Positions 1 to 4,274 of a stretch of DNA of 4,274 nucleotides are shown in pieces. Under the pieces are notes generated by a model. The model saw nothing but the letters and a program-made list of their open reading frames with translations, did no database searches and was not told where the DNA came from. How positions within the stretch are numbered: the stretch's first letter is position 1; each line of letters starts with the position of its first letter. Position numbers and translations under genes: made by a program. Source of the DNA: a virus (taxonomy: Duplodnaviria > Heunggongvirae > Uroviricota > Caudoviricetes); the IMG/VR virus record IMGVR_UViG_2690316115_000023; one strand, written 5' to 3'.

Positions 1-102
1 CTGCCACTGTTTCGCATGTGCCCAGGCATCACTACCCGCAAAAATAATGACTTCGGTCATCTTGTCGTAAGGCTGTTTTTTTAAGTTCGGTGCGCTTTTC
101 AT
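1..102 (-). CDS. Partial CDS (first 34 codons; continues beyond the window start), unknown function
   Basis: ATG at 102..100 overlaps the upstream TGA (ATGA coupling), with AGGGG 6 nt upstream. Open to the window edge. Translation: MKSAPNLKKQPYDKMTEVIIFAGSDAWAHAKQWQ. Confidence 0.45.
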   Translation of the reverse strand, partial: MKSAPNLKKQPYDKMTEVIIFAGSDAWAHAKQWQ

Positions 103-398
103 TTCTTGCCCCTGAATCCGTTAATCATGTTTTTCATCTTCTGAATATTGGTGCGTGCTTTCTCCCTGCTGGTTGGTTTACTGCGGGGCGCTGCCTGTAC
201 CAGAGAAAAATCACGATCGAACTGATAAACAGGCATAACGCAGTCATATTCGTAGCCTTCACGGCGGTAAGTGATGCGGCGTTCTCTCACGCTGATAATC
301 GTCACGATGCCGCCGTACTGGTCGCGGTAAATATCCCCGCGCATGAATTTAGTGCGAGTTTTGCCACTGGCAGTTAAGCCAGGATATTTAAGTTTCAT
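99..398 (-). CDS. Small hypothetical protein (99 aa), possibly DUF4222-like
   Basis: ATG at 398 with GGAGA 9 nt upstream. The core GDIYRDQYGGIVTIISVRERRITYRREGYEYDCVMPVYQFDRDFSLV matches my recollection of the DUF4222 pattern (YRD..G..V.V..V...R.TF.R.GY...C..P...F...F); unverified. TGA stop at 101..99. Confidence 0.6.
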   Translation of the reverse strand: MKLKYPGLTASGKTRTKFMRGDIYRDQYGGIVTIISVRERRITYRREGYEYDCVMPVYQFDRDFSLVQAAPRSKPTSREKARTNIQKMKNMINGFRGKK

Positions 399-403
399 TA
401 TTT

Positions 404-637
404 TTATTCTCCGGTGTGCTGTTCTTTATATCTGTCGTGCAATAGATCTATTTCCTGCAACTCATTTATTACAGGCTCAAGAAGCGTTATTAATGATGTA
501 ATAATCCGCGTTTTTTTTGCATTACGTTCATTATCGCCAAAGGATTCAAGGCACATCCGCAATATTTCGTACATACCTTCAGCGTAAGCAAGGGCACTAA
601 ATGCGCGGTCTATTGTTTCAAGATAAATATCACGCAT
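404..637 (-). CDS. Small hypothetical protein (77 aa), probable third, more divergent member of the paralog array
   Basis: ATG at 637, one nt after the upstream TAA (coupled). TAA stop at 406..404. Weak similarity to the previous two (AL ... E-x-M ... L-C/E-T/S). Confidence 0.55.
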   Translation of the reverse strand: MRDIYLETIDRAFSALAYAEGMYEILRMCLESFGDNERNAKKTRIITSLITLLEPVINELQEIDLLHDRYKEQHTGE

Positions 638-638
638 A

Positions 639-860
639 TTAATCCCCGTCCGTTGTTTTTCTTAAAACAGCTTCTGTCACGAAATCAGCATAGTTAGCGG
701 CAATATCAAGAATATTTAGCCCTGTACCTCTGTGCTCATCAGTGCAAAGAAAGAAAAAAGCCACCCGCATAATTTCAGATATTGACGAAAGCGCATCAGC
801 CGCATCATCAGGAACGCCGGAAAATTCTTGTTTCAGGGAATTAAAACGATCATCACGCAT
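639..860 (-). CDS. Small hypothetical protein (73 aa), second member of the paralog array
   Basis: ATG at 860 (8-nt overlap with the upstream TGA), preceded by the G8 tract as an SD-like element. TAA stop at 641..639. Carries GVPDDAADALSSI and GLNILDIA, paralogous to the 853..1074 product. The ORF track extends to 908, but that start has no RBS. Confidence 0.55.
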   Translation of the reverse strand: MRDDRFNSLKQEFSGVPDDAADALSSISEIMRVAFFFLCTDEHRGTGLNILDIAANYADFVTEAVLRKTTDGD

Positions 861-1074
861 AACCCCCCCCATTTTCACAATCAGCAACAAGAATATTTTT
901 AGCGTCATTCAGCGACCGCGTTGCGATGTATCGGATACATTCCAGGGCGAACGTTGTCCGGTCTTTCTGTTCTTCTCCCTGCGCAAGCTCTGCCGTGCAT
1001 TCAATATCAATAAGCGCGTGCATCAGCGTAGTGAGCGCGGCGGCGGCTGCGTCCGGTGTGGTTTTATTGCACAT
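853..1074 (-). CDS. Small hypothetical protein (73 aa), first member of a three-paralog array
   Basis: ATG at 1074 with AGGAGG 6 nt upstream; the start overlaps the upstream stop by 11 nt. TGA stop at 855..853. Shares the motif PD-A/D-AA-A/D-AL-T/S-T/S-L/I and NIL with the next gene, with synonymous codon differences. Confidence 0.6.
   Translation of the reverse strand: MCNKTTPDAAAAALTTLMHALIDIECTAELAQGEEQKDRTTFALECIRYIATRSLNDAKNILVADCENGGGYA
863..870. repeat. Homopolymeric C8 (G8 on the coding strand) tract at the junction of two overlapping genes
   Basis: Eight consecutive C at 863..870. It encodes Gly-Gly-Gly at the C-terminus of the upstream gene and sits 2 nt upstream of the ATG of the downstream gene. 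Confidence 0.9.
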
Positions 1075-1255
1075 GGCACACCTCCTGACGAATACGGGCG
1101 GCGAATACAGCAACACAACCGGACGGGCAACGGCTACGTGCTTCGCGTTCCGTCCAGGCGGTTACGTGGATGATTTGATGTTCTGACGCGCCAAAGATGA
1201 TAAAGCGCCAGAGAAAGGCGGTTTGAGAATGTACAAGGGTAGGGATAGTAGCCAT
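1064..1255 (-). CDS. Icd-like small protein, copy A (63 aa), translatable independently from an internal start
   Basis: ATG at 1255 with GAGGAGG 8 nt upstream. Sequence MATIPTLVHSQTAFLWRF...EREARSRCPSGCVAVFAARIRQEVCHVQ. The family assignment is from recalled Icd-like sequences (F-x-W-x-F near the N-terminus, EQEAR ... F-x-A-R near the C-terminus) and is unverified. Confidence 0.6.
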   Translation of the reverse strand: MATIPTLVHSQTAFLWRFIIFGASEHQIIHVTAWTEREARSRCPSGCVAVFAARIRQEVCHVQ

Positions 1256-1624
1256 GTTGGCAGCCTCCTCAGTGTGGTTAAGATAACCGCCACCGGAAAC
1301 GCCAATTTCGCTGGTGGCGGACTGTACAGGGTTGGCGTAACCGGACACTGAAGAAACCGGCGCGGATTGCTCCGCCCCCGTACAGCCCACCATTGATAAG
1401 GTGTGACTATGCGGCACAAAAAAACACGCGGGGCGCGTGTTATGCGCTTCAGTTTTGCCCAGGACGCCAATCCCGGCACCCGTTTTATGAGGTGCGCGGG
1501 AATCATAGCTATTTTCGACACTGGCGATCAACTGGTTTTTTTCTCCGATATTCAGGGCCAGAAAACGCCACACAAAGGCCGTTTGTGTGTGTACAAGGTG
1601 TGGTATATGATTTACGGCAACCAT
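1064..1624 (-). CDS. Two-domain read-through ORF (186 aa): tandem paralogous domains, tentatively Icd-like (host cell division inhibitor-like), joined by a Gly/Ser-rich linker
   Basis: ATG at 1624 with AGGAG 5 nt upstream (the ORF-track extension to GTG 1723 has no SD). The N-domain (PHLVHTQTAFVWRF...TEAHNTRPACFFV) and C-domain (PTLVHSQTAFLWRF...EREARSRCPSGCVAVFAARIRQEV) align with several synonymous codon differences (CAC/CAT, ACG/ACC, CGT/CGC), indicating protein-level conservation. There is no in-frame stop between them. TAA stop at 1066..1064. Confidence 0.5.
   Translation of the reverse strand: MVAVNHIPHLVHTQTAFVWRFLALNIGEKNQLIASVENSYDSRAPHKTGAGIGVLGKTEAHNTRPACFFVPHSHTLSMVGCTGAEQSAPVSSVSGYANPVQSATSEIGVSGGGYLNHTEEAANMATIPTLVHSQTAFLWRFIIFGASEHQIIHVTAWTEREARSRCPSGCVAVFAARIRQEVCHVQ
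1418..1440 (-). terminator. Intragenic intrinsic-terminator-like hairpin inside the first Icd-like domain
   Basis: On the minus strand: ACACGCG-CCC-CGCGUGU (7-bp GC-rich stem, 3-nt loop) followed by U6. It lies within the codons for NTRPACFF. Confidence 0.4.
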
Positions 1625-1654
1625 AACGGCTCCTAGTTTACGTTGTTGGTTAGA

Positions 1655-1697
1655 AGCCCTGCGAGTGGTAATGACACTTGCGGGGCTTTGCTTTTTT
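1655..1697 (+). terminator. Plus-oriented intrinsic terminator upstream of the RHH promoter region
   Basis: 13-bp stem (1655..1667 with 1675..1687, two G-U pairs), 7-nt loop, followed by UUGCUUUUUU. On the minus strand the two G-U pairs become C-A mismatches, so the structure is strand-specific. Confidence 0.55.
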
Positions 1698-1713
1698 AAG
1701 TGCTCTTGTGTTA

Positions 1714-1725
1714 AGGTGACCACCT
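1714..1725. promoter_or_regulatory. Palindromic operator-like site 1 (AGGTG-AC-CACCT)
   Basis: Perfect 5-bp inverted repeat with a 2-bp spacer, in the divergent intergenic region between the RHH gene (plus) and the small-protein operon (minus). Confidence 0.45.
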
Positions 1726-1748
1726 AACAATGGAAAGGCTAATTCAAT

Positions 1749-1760
1749 AGGTGACCACTT
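1749..1760. promoter_or_regulatory. Palindromic operator-like site 2 (AGGTG-AC-CACTT)
   Basis: Near-perfect inverted repeat overlapping the SD and start codon of the RHH gene; 35 bp from site 1. Confidence 0.45.
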
Positions 1761-1950
1761 GTCAACAATCAAACGCGATAAAAGCCCTAAAGGGGACGGG
1801 CAATCCCCACAATTCAGAATGCGAATTTCTCCAGAGCTAAAAGAGCAATTCGACAAAGAAGCACAGAGCGACGGCATAAGCCTAGCCAACTGGCTTAAAG
1901 AGTTGGGGCGCACTGAACTAAAGCGGCGCGGCATAGAACCCAAAGGATAA
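1759..1950 (+). CDS. Ribbon-helix-helix (Arc/Mnt/CopG-type) DNA-binding protein (63 aa from TTG 1759; 43 aa from ATG 1819)
   Basis: FRMRISPELKEQFDKEAQSDGISLANWLKEL fits the RHH fold pattern: a beta-strand with alternating residues, then helix A, a G-x-S turn and helix B (compare Mnt FNFRMPMEVREKLKFRAEANGRSMNSELL). The TTG start has AGGTG 5 nt upstream, overlapping the second palindrome. TAA stop at 1948..1950. Confidence 0.65.
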   Translation: MSTIKRDKSPKGDGQSPQFRMRISPELKEQFDKEAQSDGISLANWLKELGRTELKRRGIEPKG

Positions 1951-1992
1951 AAACTATCAGCGCCGTGGTGTGAGGTATTACGGCGCATTGCT

Positions 1993-2181
1993 ATGCAGGA
2001 CAACACAATGACCGATAAAGAATTGACCAAAACATTATCACCGGCACGGAAAAGACGGCGCAGAAAGATAGAGCATGAATCAGAAAGATTCGCACCATGT
2101 GCTTTTGCCCTTGAGCAATTCCTTAAAGAGTATAGGGAAAAGCGCTCATTGCAGGTATGGCAACGAACTGAACCAGACTGA
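1993..2181 (+). CDS. Hypothetical small basic protein (62 aa; 57 aa from the ATG at 2008), possible partner of the RHH protein
   Basis: ORF 42 nt downstream of the RHH stop, followed about 95 nt later by the plus-strand terminator. Arg/Lys-rich (KRRRRK). There is no canonical SD: GAGGT lies 16 nt upstream, inside the loop of a 7-bp hairpin at 1960..1986. Rare codons are present. Weakly supported. Confidence 0.35.
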   Translation: MQDNTMTDKELTKTLSPARKRRRRKIEHESERFAPCAFALEQFLKEYREKRSLQVWQRTEPD

Positions 2182-2276
2182 TTGCATTGCCCACCAGCCT
2201 GATAGCGGCTATCATCCCCGTGCTTATGTTTGGGATCACATACACATAAGGCGCAGCGGGTTAATTGTTCAGAAAG

Positions 2277-2303
2277 GCGGCTCCATATCGGGGCCGCTTT
2301 TTT
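2277..2303 (+). terminator. Rho-independent terminator, plus-oriented, closing the RHH / small-ORF unit; a weaker structure on the minus strand could act after alpA
   Basis: Plus strand: GCGGCUCC-AUAUC-GGGGCCGC (8 bp including one G-U) followed by U6 at 2298..2303. The minus-strand version has a C-A mismatch and a poorer U tract. Confidence 0.65.
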
Positions 2304-2329
2304 CGTGTTTGTCATATCTGTGATACCCG

Positions 2330-2536
2330 TTAAGCAGCCGTTCCGCGTGCTTCCTGTTCGCGTTCTTTCTGCCAGGCCAACACATCATCCTCATACCATC
2401 CGCGACGGCGTAAACCAACGCGAAAACCCTGCGGAAATTCTCCGGCGTTGATCATGCTTTGCAGCGTGCTGTCTGCCTTGATGTGGATAATTTTTTTTAC
2501 TTCCTGGCGAAAGATAATTTTTCTGATTGCTTCCAT
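2330..2536 (-). CDS. alpA: AlpA / Vis / excisionase-like HTH prophage regulatory protein (68 aa)
   Basis: The segment STLQSMINAGEFPQGFRVGLRRRGWYEDDVLAWQ matches the AlpA-family HTH pattern (S-T-I/L ... G-x-F-P ... G-x-R ... W ... V-x-x-W). ATG at 2536, with AAGGT 8-9 nt upstream; TAA stop at 2332..2330. Confidence 0.85.
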   Translation of the reverse strand: MEAIRKIIFRQEVKKIIHIKADSTLQSMINAGEFPQGFRVGLRRRGWYEDDVLAWQKEREQEARGTAA

Positions 2537-2613
2537 CGTGATTTACCTTGTGAATCCGGTGTATTCCGGTGACAAATACGGTAAATCATCGGATATGGGT
2601 AAAAACAGTTCCC

Positions 2614-2643
2614 ACCGTTTTTAAACGGTATACACCGTTTTTT
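2614..2643. promoter_or_regulatory. Array of three alternating ACCGTTT / AAACGGT half-sites in the alpA upstream region
   Basis: ACCGTTT-TT-AAACGGT (2614..2629) overlaps AACGGT-ATAC-ACCGTT (2624..2639). The ACCGTTT half-sites are 20 bp apart. Direct repeats TCCGGTG at 2555 and 2565 lie immediately upstream of the alpA SD. Confidence 0.35.
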
Positions 2644-2669
2644 ATATTGATGATTTGAAATGGAATTAT

Positions 2670-2693
2670 AAAAAAAGCGGCATTTCTGCCGCT
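2670..2693 (-). terminator. Rho-independent terminator ending the int / small-ORF transcript
   Basis: On the minus strand: GCGGCA-GAAA-UGCCGC hairpin (6-8 bp stem, 4-nt loop) followed immediately by U7 (plus-strand A7 at 2670..2676). Confidence 0.7.
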
Positions 2694-2703
2694 TCCAGGA
2701 TTG

Positions 2704-2955
2704 TTACCGCCATTTTTTGGGCCTGCCTCCGATCTTCATAGATGCCGGACGTACGACCTTATCAATACTTACCGCCAGATTTCTGGAAGCGCCACGGGAT
2801 ACCAGAAAGTCTACTACCTGTTTTTTTGATGGGGCCGTCGTTCTGTCCTCCGGATCGTAGGTTGACCAAAATTCATGCTGAACCATCAGGGCCAGTTGCA
2901 GCCCGTCGCAATTGCATCTGATATTTTTTTGCATCTTAACGGTTTCATGTTTCAC
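2704..2955 (-). CDS. Hypothetical small protein (83 aa from GTG; 76 aa from the internal ATG at 2934)
   Basis: ORF between int and alpA with TAA stop at 2706..2704, followed 11 nt later by a strong minus-strand intrinsic terminator. The start is weakly supported: GTG with AAGG only 2 nt upstream, or ATG at 2934 with no clear SD. No family recognised. Confidence 0.4.
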   Translation of the reverse strand: MKHETVKMQKNIRCNCDGLQLALMVQHEFWSTYDPEDRTTAPSKKQVVDFLVSRGASRNLAVSIDKVVRPASMKIGGRPKKWR

Positions 2956-2979
2956 GGCCTTGTCGTTAAATTTGATGCA

Positions 2980-2985
2980 ATTATA
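2980..2985 (-). promoter_or_regulatory. Candidate -10 hexamer (TATAAT on the minus strand) for the small ORF downstream of int
   Basis: Perfect TATAAT on the minus strand about 25 nt upstream of the GTG at 2955, preceded by phased A-tracts (plus-strand GGTTTT repeats at 2990, 3000, 3019). No good -35 hexamer. Confidence 0.3.
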
Positions 2986-3032
2986 CGACGGTTTTACATG
3001 GTTTTCGTAGTTTTTACTGGTTTTCTGTACAG

Positions 3033-4274
3033 CTACACGGCTCGGATACCCCTTTTACCACTGGCGAGGGTTACGCCCGTCGCCGCAGCCTCGACAAATT
3101 CGCCCCACCAGCGCATCAGCACGATGCGTTTTTCTATGTAGTTGCTCCGGTTGTATGCCCGTCTAACTTCGTTGGTGTCGACGTGGGCAAGTGCCGCCTC
3201 TATTACGTCCGGCTCGAATCCTTCCTCGTTCGCTGCTGTGCTGAATATGGCGCGTAATCCATGAGACACCAGCACGCCAGCGAATCCCATACGCCGCAAT
3301 GCTGCGTTAGCTGTCTGGCTGTTCATCGGCTGCTGTGGGTCTTTCAGACTTGGGAAAACGTAATTGCGGTGGTGGCTGATTGGTTTCATGGCCTCCAGCA
3401 CCGCCATAGCCTGACCGGAAAGCGGGATAACGTGATCCCTGCGCATCTTCATACGTCCGGCAGGTATCGTCCATTGCTTCGCGTCCAGGTTGATTTCATC
3501 CCACCGCGTTGATGACGCTTCGGCGGGACGGGTTACGGTCAGTAACTGCCATTCAATCAGTAATCTGGTCTGCCGTTCTGTTGCCGATACTGATAAAGCC
3601 TGCATAAGCTCCGGCAGCTGTTCGGGGCGGATTGTTGGCATATGTTTTTTTACAGGTGAGGGAAACGCCTTACGCACATTCATAGCCGGATTGGCATCAA
3701 TCAGCCCACTGTTGGCGGCGTAATCCATTACCTCATTAACGCGCTGTAAAACCCGCTTGAGTGTTTCCAGGTTGCCGCGCTCCTTGATGGGGGTAAGCAC
3801 TTCAACGAACCTTCGGGCGGTGAGGGTATCTATTGGCGTGTTGCCGATGAACGGGAATACATATTTATCCAGCGAACGCCAGATGTCTTTAATCGTGTTG
3901 GGGGCCAGATTCTGGCTGATTTTCACCTGGTACCATGCCGCCGCCACATTTTCGAACGTGTTCCCTTGTCTTCGGGCCTCTGTCTCTCTTTTTTGCCTCT
4001 CGTGGTCCTGCGGGTCAGTTCCGGCACTGATTAACGTCCTGTACTCGCTACGGCGTTTTCTGGCATCAGCCAGGGAAACATCTTCAAGCGATCCAAAACT
4101 CAGCAATATTCTTTTTTTGTCCGATGGTCGGTAGTAGGAAAATCTCCAGAGTTTTGATCCAGACGGTTTGACCAGGAGAAAAAGCCCTCCGCCGTCCTGC
4201 AGGGTGTACTCCTTTTGCGCTGGTCTGGCTGCTTTGATCTGCACTGTGGTTAATGGGTGTGTTTTTCTCACCAT
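3033..4274 (-). CDS. int: Site-specific tyrosine recombinase, P4-type phage integrase family (413 aa)
   Basis: The N-terminus (KEYTLQDGGGLFLLVKPSGSKLWRFSY) is the typical P4-like integrase arm-binding region. The C-terminal catalytic domain carries TVTRPAEA (box I Arg), SHGLRAIFST (HxxR) and LAHV...RAYNRSNY (His and catalytic Tyr). ATG at 4274..4272, TAG stop at 3035..3033. The RBS and promoter lie outside the window. Confidence 0.95.
   Translation of the reverse strand: MVRKTHPLTTVQIKAARPAQKEYTLQDGGGLFLLVKPSGSKLWRFSYYRPSDKKRILLSFGSLEDVSLADARKRRSEYRTLISAGTDPQDHERQKRETEARRQGNTFENVAAAWYQVKISQNLAPNTIKDIWRSLDKYVFPFIGNTPIDTLTARRFVEVLTPIKERGNLETLKRVLQRVNEVMDYAANSGLIDANPAMNVRKAFPSPVKKHMPTIRPEQLPELMQALSVSATERQTRLLIEWQLLTVTRPAEASSTRWDEINLDAKQWTIPAGRMKMRRDHVIPLSGQAMAVLEAMKPISHHRNYVFPSLKDPQQPMNSQTANAALRRMGFAGVLVSHGLRAIFSTAANEEGFEPDVIEAALAHVDTNEVRRAYNRSNYIEKRIVLMRWWGEFVEAAATGVTLASGKRGIRAV

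What the first reader, a model, noticed from the sequence alone, without database searches (positions are those of the whole stretch)
853..872. G8 homopolymer at a gene junction acting as a potential frame switch
The eight-C tract (863..870) sits exactly where the 853..1074 and 639..860 genes overlap. Losing one G (7 G) would fuse the two reading frames into a single product of about 150 aa (...ADCENGG-VMRDDRFNS...). As written, it supplies Gly codons for one gene and an SD-like G-run for the next. Tracts of this length are prone to slipped-strand mispairing and to sequencing error.
Basis: seen in the sequence. Interest (0 to 1): 0.5.

Follow-up and report, generated by a model that had tools for sequence, protein, structure and literature searches.

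The report
Length-variable poly-G joining two satellite genes
An eight-G run between two small genes of an E. coli phage-satellite island really does vary in length among relatives (7 to 11 G, once 13), so the two genes appear as separate, fused or tail-extended products; this kind of switch is known in Neisseria and Helicobacter but I know of no E. coli example.

Summary
There is a C8 run (G8 on the coding minus strand) at 863..870. It lies 2 nt upstream of the ATG of gene B (639..860) and inside the last codons of gene A (853..1074).

- G7 and G10 give annotated single 144/145-aa fusion proteins (...CENGG(G)VMRDD...), seen on hundreds of contigs.
- G8 gives the window's two genes, overlapping by ATGCGTGA.
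- G9 gives A a 10-residue alternative tail.

Pooled over three samples, pure tracts number G7 46, G8 63, G9 36, G10 5 and G11 1. There is no three-base periodicity. Nineteen other homopolymers in the window are essentially invariant in the same loci. Loci with identical 420-nt flanks differ in tract length, and two assemblies of strain 97-3250 differ only here (G9 vs G10).

Distant relatives are separate A and B genes without poly-G, so the two-gene state looks ancestral. The G-run pairs with the anti-Shine-Dalgarno sequence as well as a canonical site does.

Best reading: a slippage-prone Shine-Dalgarno/Gly-linker tract in the early operon of a PICI-like satellite. All three frames appear tolerated. 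The function of A and B is unknown, and within-population switching is untested.

The parts
863..870 (-). G8 homopolymer (C8 on + strand). It encodes the Gly-Gly-Gly near the C-terminus of A and forms the Shine-Dalgarno-like run 2 nt upstream of B's ATG. Its length is polymorphic among relatives.
   Evidence: presence. (length 7-11 in relatives while flanks are identical). (anti-SD pairing -11.1 kcal/mol).
853..1074 (-). Gene A, 73 aa (MCNKTT...ADCENGGGYA*), function unknown. Predicted helical hairpin. Has its own AGGAGG Shine-Dalgarno site.
   Evidence: phrog_5146, and positions 1-76 of the 154-position phrog_2512. PGAP annotates the identical arrangement in L002. Helices. SD.
639..860 (-). 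Gene B, 73 aa (MRDDRFNSLKQEF...), function unknown. It is the more conserved partner.
   Evidence: phrog_24341, and positions 78-146 of phrog_2512. The stretch 775..860 has 94-100% majority identity over 59 distinct loci. Stand-alone B homologues begin at the same Met.
853..860 (-). ATGCGTGA start/stop overlap of A and B, a translational-coupling type junction. It is in effect only when the tract is 8 (or 5 or 11) long.
   Evidence: Read directly. The same ATGCGTGA overlap occurs at the A'/B junction in L090 and at the B/C junction in the O157 allele.
404..637 (-). Gene C, 77 aa, next small gene of the same operon (phrog_2196). Context only.

Best explanation
The G-run is the ribosome-binding stretch of gene B, embedded in the Gly-rich 3' end of gene A. 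It sits in the early operon (isrK/C4 RNA, icd-like, A, B, C, DUF4222, RepA helicase) of a PICI-like phage satellite integrated at a tRNA-Pro gene.

Because it is a 7-10-base G/C homopolymer, it gains and loses single G's by slipped-strand mispairing faster than the surrounding DNA accumulates substitutions. Each length class gives a different but still coding arrangement:
- G8 (the window; also G11): two translationally coupled genes with an ATGCGTGA overlap. This is the arrangement of distant relatives, so it is probably ancestral.
- G7, G10, G13: one A-(Gly)n-Val-B fusion protein of 144/145 aa or more.
- G9, G12: A with a 10-residue alternative tail (LCVMIVLIP) ending 28 nt inside B, while B keeps its own start.

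All three frames occur at comparable frequency in nature. The tract therefore behaves as a length-polymorphic linker whose states are all tolerated, most simply because A and B act together whether or not they are covalently joined.

Shown: the tract, the frame logic, the natural polymorphism and its specificity to this tract, the fused and split annotated products, and the Shine-Dalgarno-like pairing energy.

Inferred: slipped-strand mispairing as the cause, tolerance of all three states, and A-B cooperation.
For: Polymorphism among close relatives:
- Near-identical E. coli islands carry G8 (L002), G9 (L001) and G10 (L003). PGAP annotates two CDS, two CDS with an 80-aa A, or one 145-aa CDS respectively.
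- Tract counts: 17/24/13/3/1 for G7-G11 in IMG/VR loci; 10/27/12/1 for G7-G10 in metagenome contigs, mostly short-read 'NODE' assemblies; about 19/12/11/1 in a spread sample of complete E. coli genomes, read from alignment spans.
- Pooled frames are about 34% fused, 42% split and 24% extended, with no three-base periodicity.

Specificity to this tract:
- Nineteen other homopolymers of the window are invariant in the same loci, apart from one intergenic T6 that is T5 in two loci. Only 863..870 varies widely.
- Five of nine groups of loci with identical 420-nt flanks have mixed tract lengths.
- Strain 97-3250, assembled twice, has G9 versus G10 with the other 4.3 kb identical.

Fused forms are abundant and can be stable:
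- P0001 is on 212 contigs, P0003 on 152 and P0014 on 258.
- The O157:H7/O145 G7 allele is exact in roughly 240 complete genomes, my extrapolation from 16 of 60 spread-sampled rows out of 900 matching records. 23 of 24 sampled near-identical records are G7.

Both states have derivatives with an interrupted or altered tract:
- Split frame: GGGGGTGG (synonymous) and GGGGTGGG.
- Fused: G8 followed by a single T, giving GGGM; GGGIM and NRGV variants.

Ancestral state and role as ribosome-binding site:
- Distant relatives are separate A-only proteins ending ...GHA or ...CDA without poly-Gly, and B-only proteins starting at the same Met.
- A different upstream gene A' also ends in a G6/G7/G9 run before B.
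- Anti-SD pairing of the G-run is -11.1 kcal/mol.
- The AlphaFold2 model is low confidence. It places the Gly stretch in a <50 pLDDT linker between two helical modules.
Against: - No reads were available, so within-population switching and its rate are not shown. Some single-base differences between assemblies, including the 97-3250 pair, could be homopolymer consensus errors.
- The samples are not phylogenetically independent. O157 clones inflate G7, so the claim of no frame preference is only semi-quantitative. G8 is the mode in two of the three samples, which could reflect mild selection for the split state.
- Nothing is known about what A and B do. The structure model is poor (pLDDT 55), so 'A and B act together' is conjecture.
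- The G7 allele is essentially fixed across a large clone, so short forms of the tract are not very unstable.
Confidence: 0.6

Rival explanations
1. Adaptive contingency locus. The satellite keeps the poly-G because stochastic, reversible switching between separate A and B, the A-B fusion and tail-extended A diversifies its behaviour, for example its response to different helper phages or its timing of replication. This would be bet-hedging, as with C-terminal phase variation in Neisseria and Helicobacter.
For: - The uninterrupted G-run is retained in alleles whose proteins are only 58-75% identical, and in front of B even with a different upstream gene.
- Tract length changes faster than the flanks.
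- All three frames remain coding.
- There is precedent for homopolymers that switch C-termini or fuse adjacent genes: PMC2823697 (HCAN_0660/0661) and PMC5320596 (NGK_1211/1212).
Against: - No phenotype is known.
- The frame distribution is what neutral slippage would give.
- Interrupted 'locked' alleles exist in nature.
- G7 is fixed across a whole O157 clone.
- The conserved G-run is also explained simply by its Shine-Dalgarno and Gly-codon roles.
- From general knowledge, mismatch-repair-proficient E. coli is not known for homopolymer contingency loci.
Confidence: 0.2
2. Sequencing or assembly artefact. The tract has one true length per lineage, and the observed differences are homopolymer miscalls. 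The window's G8 might itself be a miscalled G7 or G10 of a single gene.
For: - G/C homopolymers of 8-10 are a known weak point of long-read consensus (general knowledge).
- Two assemblies of the same strain disagree by one G.
- Most differences are plus or minus 1.
Against: - The same spread of lengths is seen in three independent collections, including short-read metagenome assemblies.
- About 240 complete genomes from many projects agree on G7 for the O157 allele.
- A7/A8/T7/T8 runs in the same loci never vary.
- G8 is the commonest state. It also has point-interrupted derivatives of the same total length and frame, which cannot be homopolymer miscalls.
- A G8 state recurs in Nissle 1917 and ATCC 25922 assemblies.
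Confidence: 0.1
3. Recoding at the RNA or ribosome level. The G-run acts as a slippery site (G GGG GGG), or as a site of transcriptional slippage. Any one allele would then produce both the separate proteins and some A-B fusion, as in the programmed frameshifts of dnaX or phage tail chaperones.
For: - A run of 7 or more G contains an X XXY YYZ-type heptamer.
- In the G9 state a -1 shift would join A to B. In the G8 state a +1 shift would do so (frame logic).
Against: - Programmed sites are conserved in length and frame, whereas here length varies freely.
- The 106 nt around and downstream of the tract show no unusual RNA structure (z = -0.54).
- From general knowledge, transcriptional slippage is best documented for A/T runs rather than G runs.
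- No direct data bear on this.
Confidence: 0.1

Closest known systems
C-terminal phase variation with gene fusion by homopolymeric tracts (Helicobacter canadensis HCAN_0660/0661, Snyder et al. 2010, PMC2823697; Neisseria gonorrhoeae NGK_1211/1212, Zelewska et al. 2016, PMC5320596)
   Same: A G/C homopolymer lies near the 3' end of a CDS. The three frames give two alternative C-termini and one fusion with the downstream CDS. Tract length differs between strains (for the precedent; here).
   Different: - The host is E. coli, and the element is a phage satellite rather than a surface or host-interaction gene.
- The tract doubles as the downstream gene's Shine-Dalgarno-like site, so the downstream protein is probably made in every state. 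Nothing is switched 'off'.
- Population-level switching has not been demonstrated here.
Translationally coupled overlapping genes (ATGnnnTGA / ATGA-type junctions) in phage and satellite operons
   Same: In the window's G8 state A's stop and B's start overlap in ATGCGTGA. The same 8-nt overlap recurs at A'/B and B/C junctions in relatives.
   Different: Ordinary coupled junctions are not preceded by a slippage-prone homopolymer that can abolish the coupling or fuse the genes.
Split/fused gene pairs (gene fission-fusion polymorphism) in bacterial genomes
   Same: The same two modules are found as one polypeptide (phrog_2512, 154 positions) or as two (phrog_5146 plus phrog_24341).
   Different: Here the interconversion is by single-base slippage in a homopolymer and is seen between otherwise identical sequences. 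It is not a rare fixed evolutionary event.
PICI-type phage satellites of Enterobacteria, and the P1 immI-type c4-icd immunity cassette
   Same: The island has an integrase next to tRNA-Pro, an AlpA-like regulator, C4/isrK RNAs plus an icd-like gene, a RepA helicase, a small terminase and a major capsid protein in about 8.4 kb.
   Different: This only gives context for the tract. No published satellite description that I found mentions the A/B genes or the tract, and the family has no match in the phage genome collection.

Membership tests
Homopolymer-mediated C-terminal phase variation / gene-fusion switching | Homopolymeric tract of about 7 nt or more inside the 3' end of a coding sequence | tested here: met
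   G8 at 863..870, within the last 6 codons of A.
Homopolymer-mediated C-terminal phase variation / gene-fusion switching | Tract length differs among strains or closely related copies while the flanks stay the same | tested here: met
   Lengths of 7-11 occur with invariant flanks. Groups with identical 420-nt flanks show mixed lengths. Other homopolymers are invariant.
Homopolymer-mediated C-terminal phase variation / gene-fusion switching | Alternative frames give alternative C-termini, one of them a fusion with the downstream CDS | tested here: met
   - G8: ...GGGYA*.
- G9...GGGLCVMIVLIP*.
- G10/G7: fusion of 145/144 aa.
Homopolymer-mediated C-terminal phase variation / gene-fusion switching | High-frequency, reversible switching within a clonal population | not testable with these tools
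   No reads were available. The only hint is two assemblies of strain 97-3250 with G9 versus G10, which could also be an assembly error.
Homopolymer-mediated C-terminal phase variation / gene-fusion switching | The switch changes a phenotype | not testable with these tools
   A and B have no known function: no hit in Pfam, NCBIfam, PADLOC or PDB, and only PHROGs families of unknown function.
Programmed ribosomal frameshift site | Slippery sequence conserved in length and frame among homologues | tested here: not met
   Tract length and frame vary freely.
Programmed ribosomal frameshift site | Downstream stimulatory RNA structure | tested here: not met
   The fold of 780..885 (- strand) has z = -0.54 against shuffles.
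Translationally coupled overlapping gene pair | The upstream stop overlaps or abuts the downstream start, with a ribosome-binding sequence inside the upstream gene | tested here: met
   ATGCGTGA at 853..860. The G-run/anti-SD duplex is -11.1 kcal/mol. Coupling itself has not been measured.
PICI-like phage satellite (genomic context) | Small island with a tyrosine integrase at a tRNA site, an AlpA-type regulator, a replication helicase or primase, and packaging or capsid genes, without a full phage gene set | tested here: met
   The annotated homologous island in L084 is about 8.4 kb: int, HTH/AlpA, icd, RepA helicase, TerS and major capsid next to tRNA-Pro. Helper-dependent mobilisation was not tested.

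The most novel reading that the evidence does not exclude
The poly-G is a selected contingency locus of a widespread E. coli phage satellite. It would stochastically toggle two early-operon proteins between separate, fused and tail-extended forms to hedge the satellite's interaction with different helper phages or hosts. As far as I know that would be the first homopolymer-driven protein-architecture switch described in E. coli or in any phage satellite.
Probability: 0.15. Interest if true: 0.7.

Novelty: new member of a known kind. Interest (0 to 1): 0.45.

Why it matters
From general knowledge, E. coli is usually regarded as poor in homopolymer contingency loci. Here a G/C tract in a satellite carried by roughly one in six complete E. 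coli genomes (889 of 5426 match the junction) is clearly length-polymorphic. It changes the predicted proteome among one fused, two coupled, or one tail-extended plus one separate product.

Practical consequences:
- It explains inconsistent annotation of these loci: one CDS versus two, 73 versus 80 versus 144/145 aa, and three PHROG families for one module pair.
- It marks a position where assemblies of the same strain can legitimately or artefactually disagree.

Biological consequence: it offers a natural allelic series (G7 to G10, plus locked variants) for asking what these unknown early satellite proteins do, and whether covalent linkage matters.

Tried and rejected
- Counting exact G7-G10 alleles in E. 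coli genomes by identity bands of short BLAST queries. Rejected as a count, because partial 100% alignments of other alleles fall into the same band. Spread-sampled rows were used instead.
- Paralogy of A, B and C by BLASTP: none detectable.
- Function of A, B and the fusion. No hit in Pfam, NCBIfam, PADLOC or PDB sequences, and only PHROGs families of unknown function. No match in the phage genome collection.
- AlphaFold2 on an 18-sequence alignment gave pLDDT 55. That is too poor for a fold search, so none was run.
- Cross-species survey. The B alignment found only Shigella flexneri and Escherichia ruysiae among species representatives. The exhaustive HMMER search found only 37 representatives at 50% identity, so the family is narrow and no deep phylogeny is possible.
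- RNA structure at the junction, as a frameshift stimulator or functional RNA: not significant.
- Conservation of the tract flanks as a special DNA element. Rejected: the whole 5' third of B is highly conserved, so the flank conservation is not specific to the junction.
- Literature search on homopolymers in E. coli satellites: nothing specific to this locus.

Full report
**1. What is in the sequence**

The window has a C8 run at 863..870, which is G8 on the minus strand. It is the only G/C homopolymer of six or more bases in the window. Dinucleotide-preserving shuffles give 0.07 such runs per window, and 11 of 200 shuffles have at least one.

Both flanking genes are on the minus strand.
- Gene A is 853..1074: 73 aa, MCNKTT...ILVADCENGGGYA*.
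- Gene B is 639..860: 73 aa, MRDDRFNSLKQEF....

Read on the minus strand, the junction is AAT GGG GGG GGT TAT GCG TGA for A, and ATG CGT GAT for B. The two genes therefore overlap by the 8 nt ATGCGTGA (853..860). The tract lies 2 nt upstream of B's ATG and supplies A's three Gly codons.

The tract is adjacent to the overlap rather than in it. A one-G deletion gives a 144-aa product rather than about 150 aa.

**2. Genomic context**

The window is the integrase-proximal arm of a small island. It contains:
- a P4-type integrase (3033..4274);
- an AlpA/HTH protein (2330..2536);
- an icd-like gene (1064..1255);
- A, B and a third small gene C (404..637);
- a DUF4222 protein (99..398).

Rfam finds an isrK sRNA (1419..1495) and a C4 antisense RNA (1310..1397) just upstream of icd. 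This is the arrangement of the P1 immI-type immunity cassette.

In a 97.6%-identical island of E. coli 01_3327 the island continues with a RepA-family helicase, three small ORFs, a small terminase and a major capsid protein. It totals about 8.4 kb between yejO and tRNA-Pro/yejM. This is a PICI-like phage satellite.

Matches to the A-B region occur in 1234 of 5426 complete E. coli genomes, and matches to the junction itself in 889. The family has no match in the phage genome collection. Among GTDB species representatives it was found only in Shigella flexneri and Escherichia ruysiae.

**3. The tract length varies, and the frame consequences are as predicted**

Three nearly identical E. coli islands carry different lengths, and PGAP annotates each differently.

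| Locus | Tract | PGAP annotation |
|---|---|---|
| L002 | G8 | two 73-aa CDS, as in the window |
| L001 | G9 | an 80-aa A ending GGGLCVMIVLIP*, plus B |
| L003 | G10 | a single 145-aa CDS, WP_000336142.1, ...CENGGGVMRDD... |

A protein search with the fused form returns hundreds of fused proteins.
- 144 aa with a GGV junction (G7), for example P0014 on 258 contigs.
- 145 aa with GGGV (G10): P0001 on 212 contigs and P0003 on 152.
- One with GGGGV (G13): P0103.

PHROGs holds all three views of the module pair: phrog_5146 (A alone), phrog_24341 (B alone) and the 154-position phrog_2512, of which A matches positions 1-76 and B positions 78-146. The O157:H7 allele is a G7 fusion of 154 aa.

**4. 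How variable is it, and is it specific to this tract?**

| Sample | G7 | G8 | G9 | G10 | G11 | Other |
|---|---|---|---|---|---|---|
| IMG/VR loci | 17 | 24 | 13 | 3 | 1 | 3 with GGGGAGGGGGGG |
| Metagenome contigs, largely short-read assemblies | 10 | 27 | 12 | 1 | 0 | 2 interrupted forms |
| Spread sample of complete E. coli genomes, lengths read from alignment spans | 19 | 12 | 11 | 1 | 0 | one 12-nt form |
| Pooled pure tracts | 46 | 63 | 36 | 5 | 1 | |

By frame, the pooled tracts are about 34% fused, 42% split-coupled and 24% tail-extended. The distribution is unimodal around 8 with no three-base periodicity. The samples are not phylogenetically independent, because O157 clones inflate G7.

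Specificity and speed of change:
- Nineteen other homopolymers of the window (A/T runs of 6-8, G/C runs of 5) were checked in the same loci. All were invariant apart from one intergenic T6 that is T5 in two loci. Tract 863..870 ranged from 7 to 11.
- Among nine groups of loci with identical 200+220 nt flanks, five contain more than one tract length.
- Strain 97-3250 has been assembled twice, once with G9 and once with G10. The remaining 4.3 kb are identical.

Short forms can be stable. The O157:H7/O145 G7 allele is exact in roughly 240 complete genomes. That figure is my extrapolation from 16 of 60 spread-sampled rows out of 900 matching records. In addition, 23 of 24 sampled near-identical records are G7. 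This also shows that assemblies generally call this site consistently.

**5. Which state is ancestral, and what is the run for?**

An exhaustive HMMER search found only 37 representatives at 50% identity.
- The distant ones are separate A-only proteins ending ...VGHA or ...LCDA, without poly-Gly.
- The distant B-only proteins start at exactly the Met that follows the tract.

The two-gene arrangement therefore looks ancestral. The terminal '-Ala-stop' of those A proteins is compatible with the same ATGCnTGA overlap.

That overlap recurs elsewhere in the family:
- at the junction of an unrelated upstream gene A' with B (...IQGGGKHA*, L090);
- at the B/C junction of the O157 allele (...DVSHA*/MRD...).

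The A'/B junction also carries a G-run directly upstream of B's start: G6 in most loci, G7 in L049 and G9 in L090. A G-run in front of B is thus a property of B's initiation region, whatever gene lies upstream.

Its predicted duplex with the 16S 3' end is -11.1 kcal/mol. That is comparable with the canonical AGGAGG of gene A (-11.6) and of icd (-12.1).

Derivatives with an interrupted or altered tract exist in both states:
- Split frame: GGGGGTGG (synonymous, still ENGGGYA*) and GGGGTGGG.
- Fused: G8 followed by one T instead of two, giving GGGM; a cluster of 65 member sequences, DNA confirmed.
- Fused: GGGIM and NRGV variants.

**6. Mechanism proposed**

The most economical reading is as follows. 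The run is B's Shine-Dalgarno-like element, embedded in the Gly-rich tail of A. Because it is a 7-10-base G/C homopolymer, it changes length by slipped-strand mispairing.
- The G8 state of the window is the coupled two-gene arrangement.
- G7 and G10 join A and B through a Gly-Gly(-Gly)-Val linker.
- G9 gives A a 10-residue alternative tail, with its stop 28 nt inside B.

B retains its own ATG and ribosome-binding run in all states, so nothing is obviously switched off.

Two observations suggest that all three states are tolerated. The frame distribution is flat, and locked derivatives coexist in both the split and the fused states.

A low-confidence AlphaFold2 model (pLDDT 55) shows two helical modules separated by a <50 pLDDT segment that contains the Gly stretch. 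This is compatible with a permissive linker but is not evidence for one.

Slippage as the cause, tolerance of all states and A-B cooperation are inferences. No reads, expression data or functional data were available.

**7. Rivals**

- Adaptive phase variation (bet-hedging) is not excluded. The uninterrupted run is kept across alleles that are only 58-75% identical in protein, and tract length changes faster than the flanks. However, the Shine-Dalgarno and Gly roles explain the retention, and no phenotype is known.
- Pure sequencing artefact is unlikely as the general explanation. Three independent collections give the same spread, short-read assemblies included. A/T controls are invariant. 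The O157 G7 call is stable. Interrupted alleles of the same length and frame exist. It may still account for individual discrepancies such as the 97-3250 pair.
- Programmed ribosomal frameshifting or transcriptional slippage is disfavoured. Tract length and frame are not conserved, and there is no notable downstream RNA structure (z = -0.54).

**8. Comparison with what is known**

The closest described phenomenon is 'C-terminal phase variation'. In it, a 3'-proximal homopolymer switches the C-terminus between frames and, in one frame, fuses the gene to its downstream neighbour. Examples are HCAN_0660/0661 in Helicobacter canadensis (PMC2823697) and NGK_1211/1212 in Neisseria gonorrhoeae (PMC5320596).

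Three of that category's sequence-level criteria are met here: tract position, inter-strain length variation, and frame outcomes including a fusion. The two defining functional criteria, reversible high-frequency switching within a population and a phenotype, could not be tested.

I therefore file this as a new member of a known kind. It works like a C-terminal/fusion homopolymer switch, found in an E. coli phage satellite, with the added feature that the tract is also the downstream gene's ribosome-binding run. My searches found no paper mentioning this locus.

**9. Verdict**

Interest is moderate: this is a real, specific and widespread length-polymorphic tract in an organism where I know of few such loci. 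Against that, it lies in genes of unknown function, there are signs that all states are tolerated, and there are clear precedents elsewhere.

Noticed in passing
window 1310-1397 (-), 1419-1495 (-), ORF 1064-1624 (-): Rfam finds a C4 antisense RNA (77.6 bits) and an isrK sRNA (66 bits) inside the 186-aa ORF that matches Pfam Phage_ASH (residues 40-133, about window 1226-1507) and the full length of phrog_29966. The 'Ash family protein' calls here, which PGAP marks as partial pseudogenes in relatives, may be translations of an RNA-gene region, or the region may be dual-use. Only the last 63 codons (1064-1255) match the Icd-like model.
   Followed up: partly
L034-L036, L040, L041, L049, L077-L083 (about 60 nt upstream of B's start); L090 2440-2510: In another set of islands B is preceded by an unrelated upstream gene A' (...CGYRVIQGG(G)KHA*). 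It also ends in a G-run (G6, G7 in L049, G9 in L090) followed by TAAAC-ATGCGTGA. A second, independent poly-G of variable length therefore sits at the same position relative to B. With G8 it would fuse A' to B.
   Followed up: partly
P0055, P0057, P0070, P0072, P0073, P0077, P0083 (217-221 aa); Nissle locus L087 1097-1327: In some genomes the 76-aa ORF upstream of A is fused in frame to A-B (...NAEGY-MCNKTT...), giving a triple fusion of 217-221 aa; P0070 is on 52 contigs. In Nissle 1917 that ORF is separate and overlaps A's start. The cause of this second fusion was not examined.
   Followed up: no
L088 1740-1770 (O157:H7 allele); window 635-645: The 8-nt ATGCGTGA stop/start overlap is reused at the B/C junction of the O157 allele (...DVSHA* / MRDIYH). 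B and C both start with Met-Arg-Asp. In the window B instead ends TDGD* one base before C's ATG, so the 3' end of B is mosaic between alleles.
   Followed up: partly
L021 and L027 (same IMG/VR contig 2740892233_000016); Some elements or genomes carry more than one copy of the A-B module: two on one 14-kb contig, with G7 and G8, and up to 6 places per E. coli genome. Tract states can therefore differ between copies in one cell.
   Followed up: no
window 2638-2643: The only other homopolymer with any length difference among relatives is an intergenic T6 (T5 in 2 of 12 loci), near the AlpA promoter region.
   Followed up: no
P0136 / P0138; L090 2400-2520: A 167-aa protein joins A' to B at ...SRERLRDD-RFNSLK.... 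A' itself contains CTGCGTGATGAT, a near copy of B's start ATGCGTGATGAT. This fusion therefore looks like a deletion between short direct repeats, a third route to fusing B to its upstream neighbour.
   Followed up: no
window 1759-1950 (+) and 1993-2181 (+): Two small plus-strand ORFs face the minus-strand operon. One is an Arc/HicB-like ribbon-helix-helix protein, annotated YlcI/YnfO family in relatives. The other matches phrog_21027, of unknown function. They may be the satellite's divergent regulator genes. Relatives differ in this segment: L002 lacks the YlcI gene and has a longer icd-like pseudogene.
   Followed up: no
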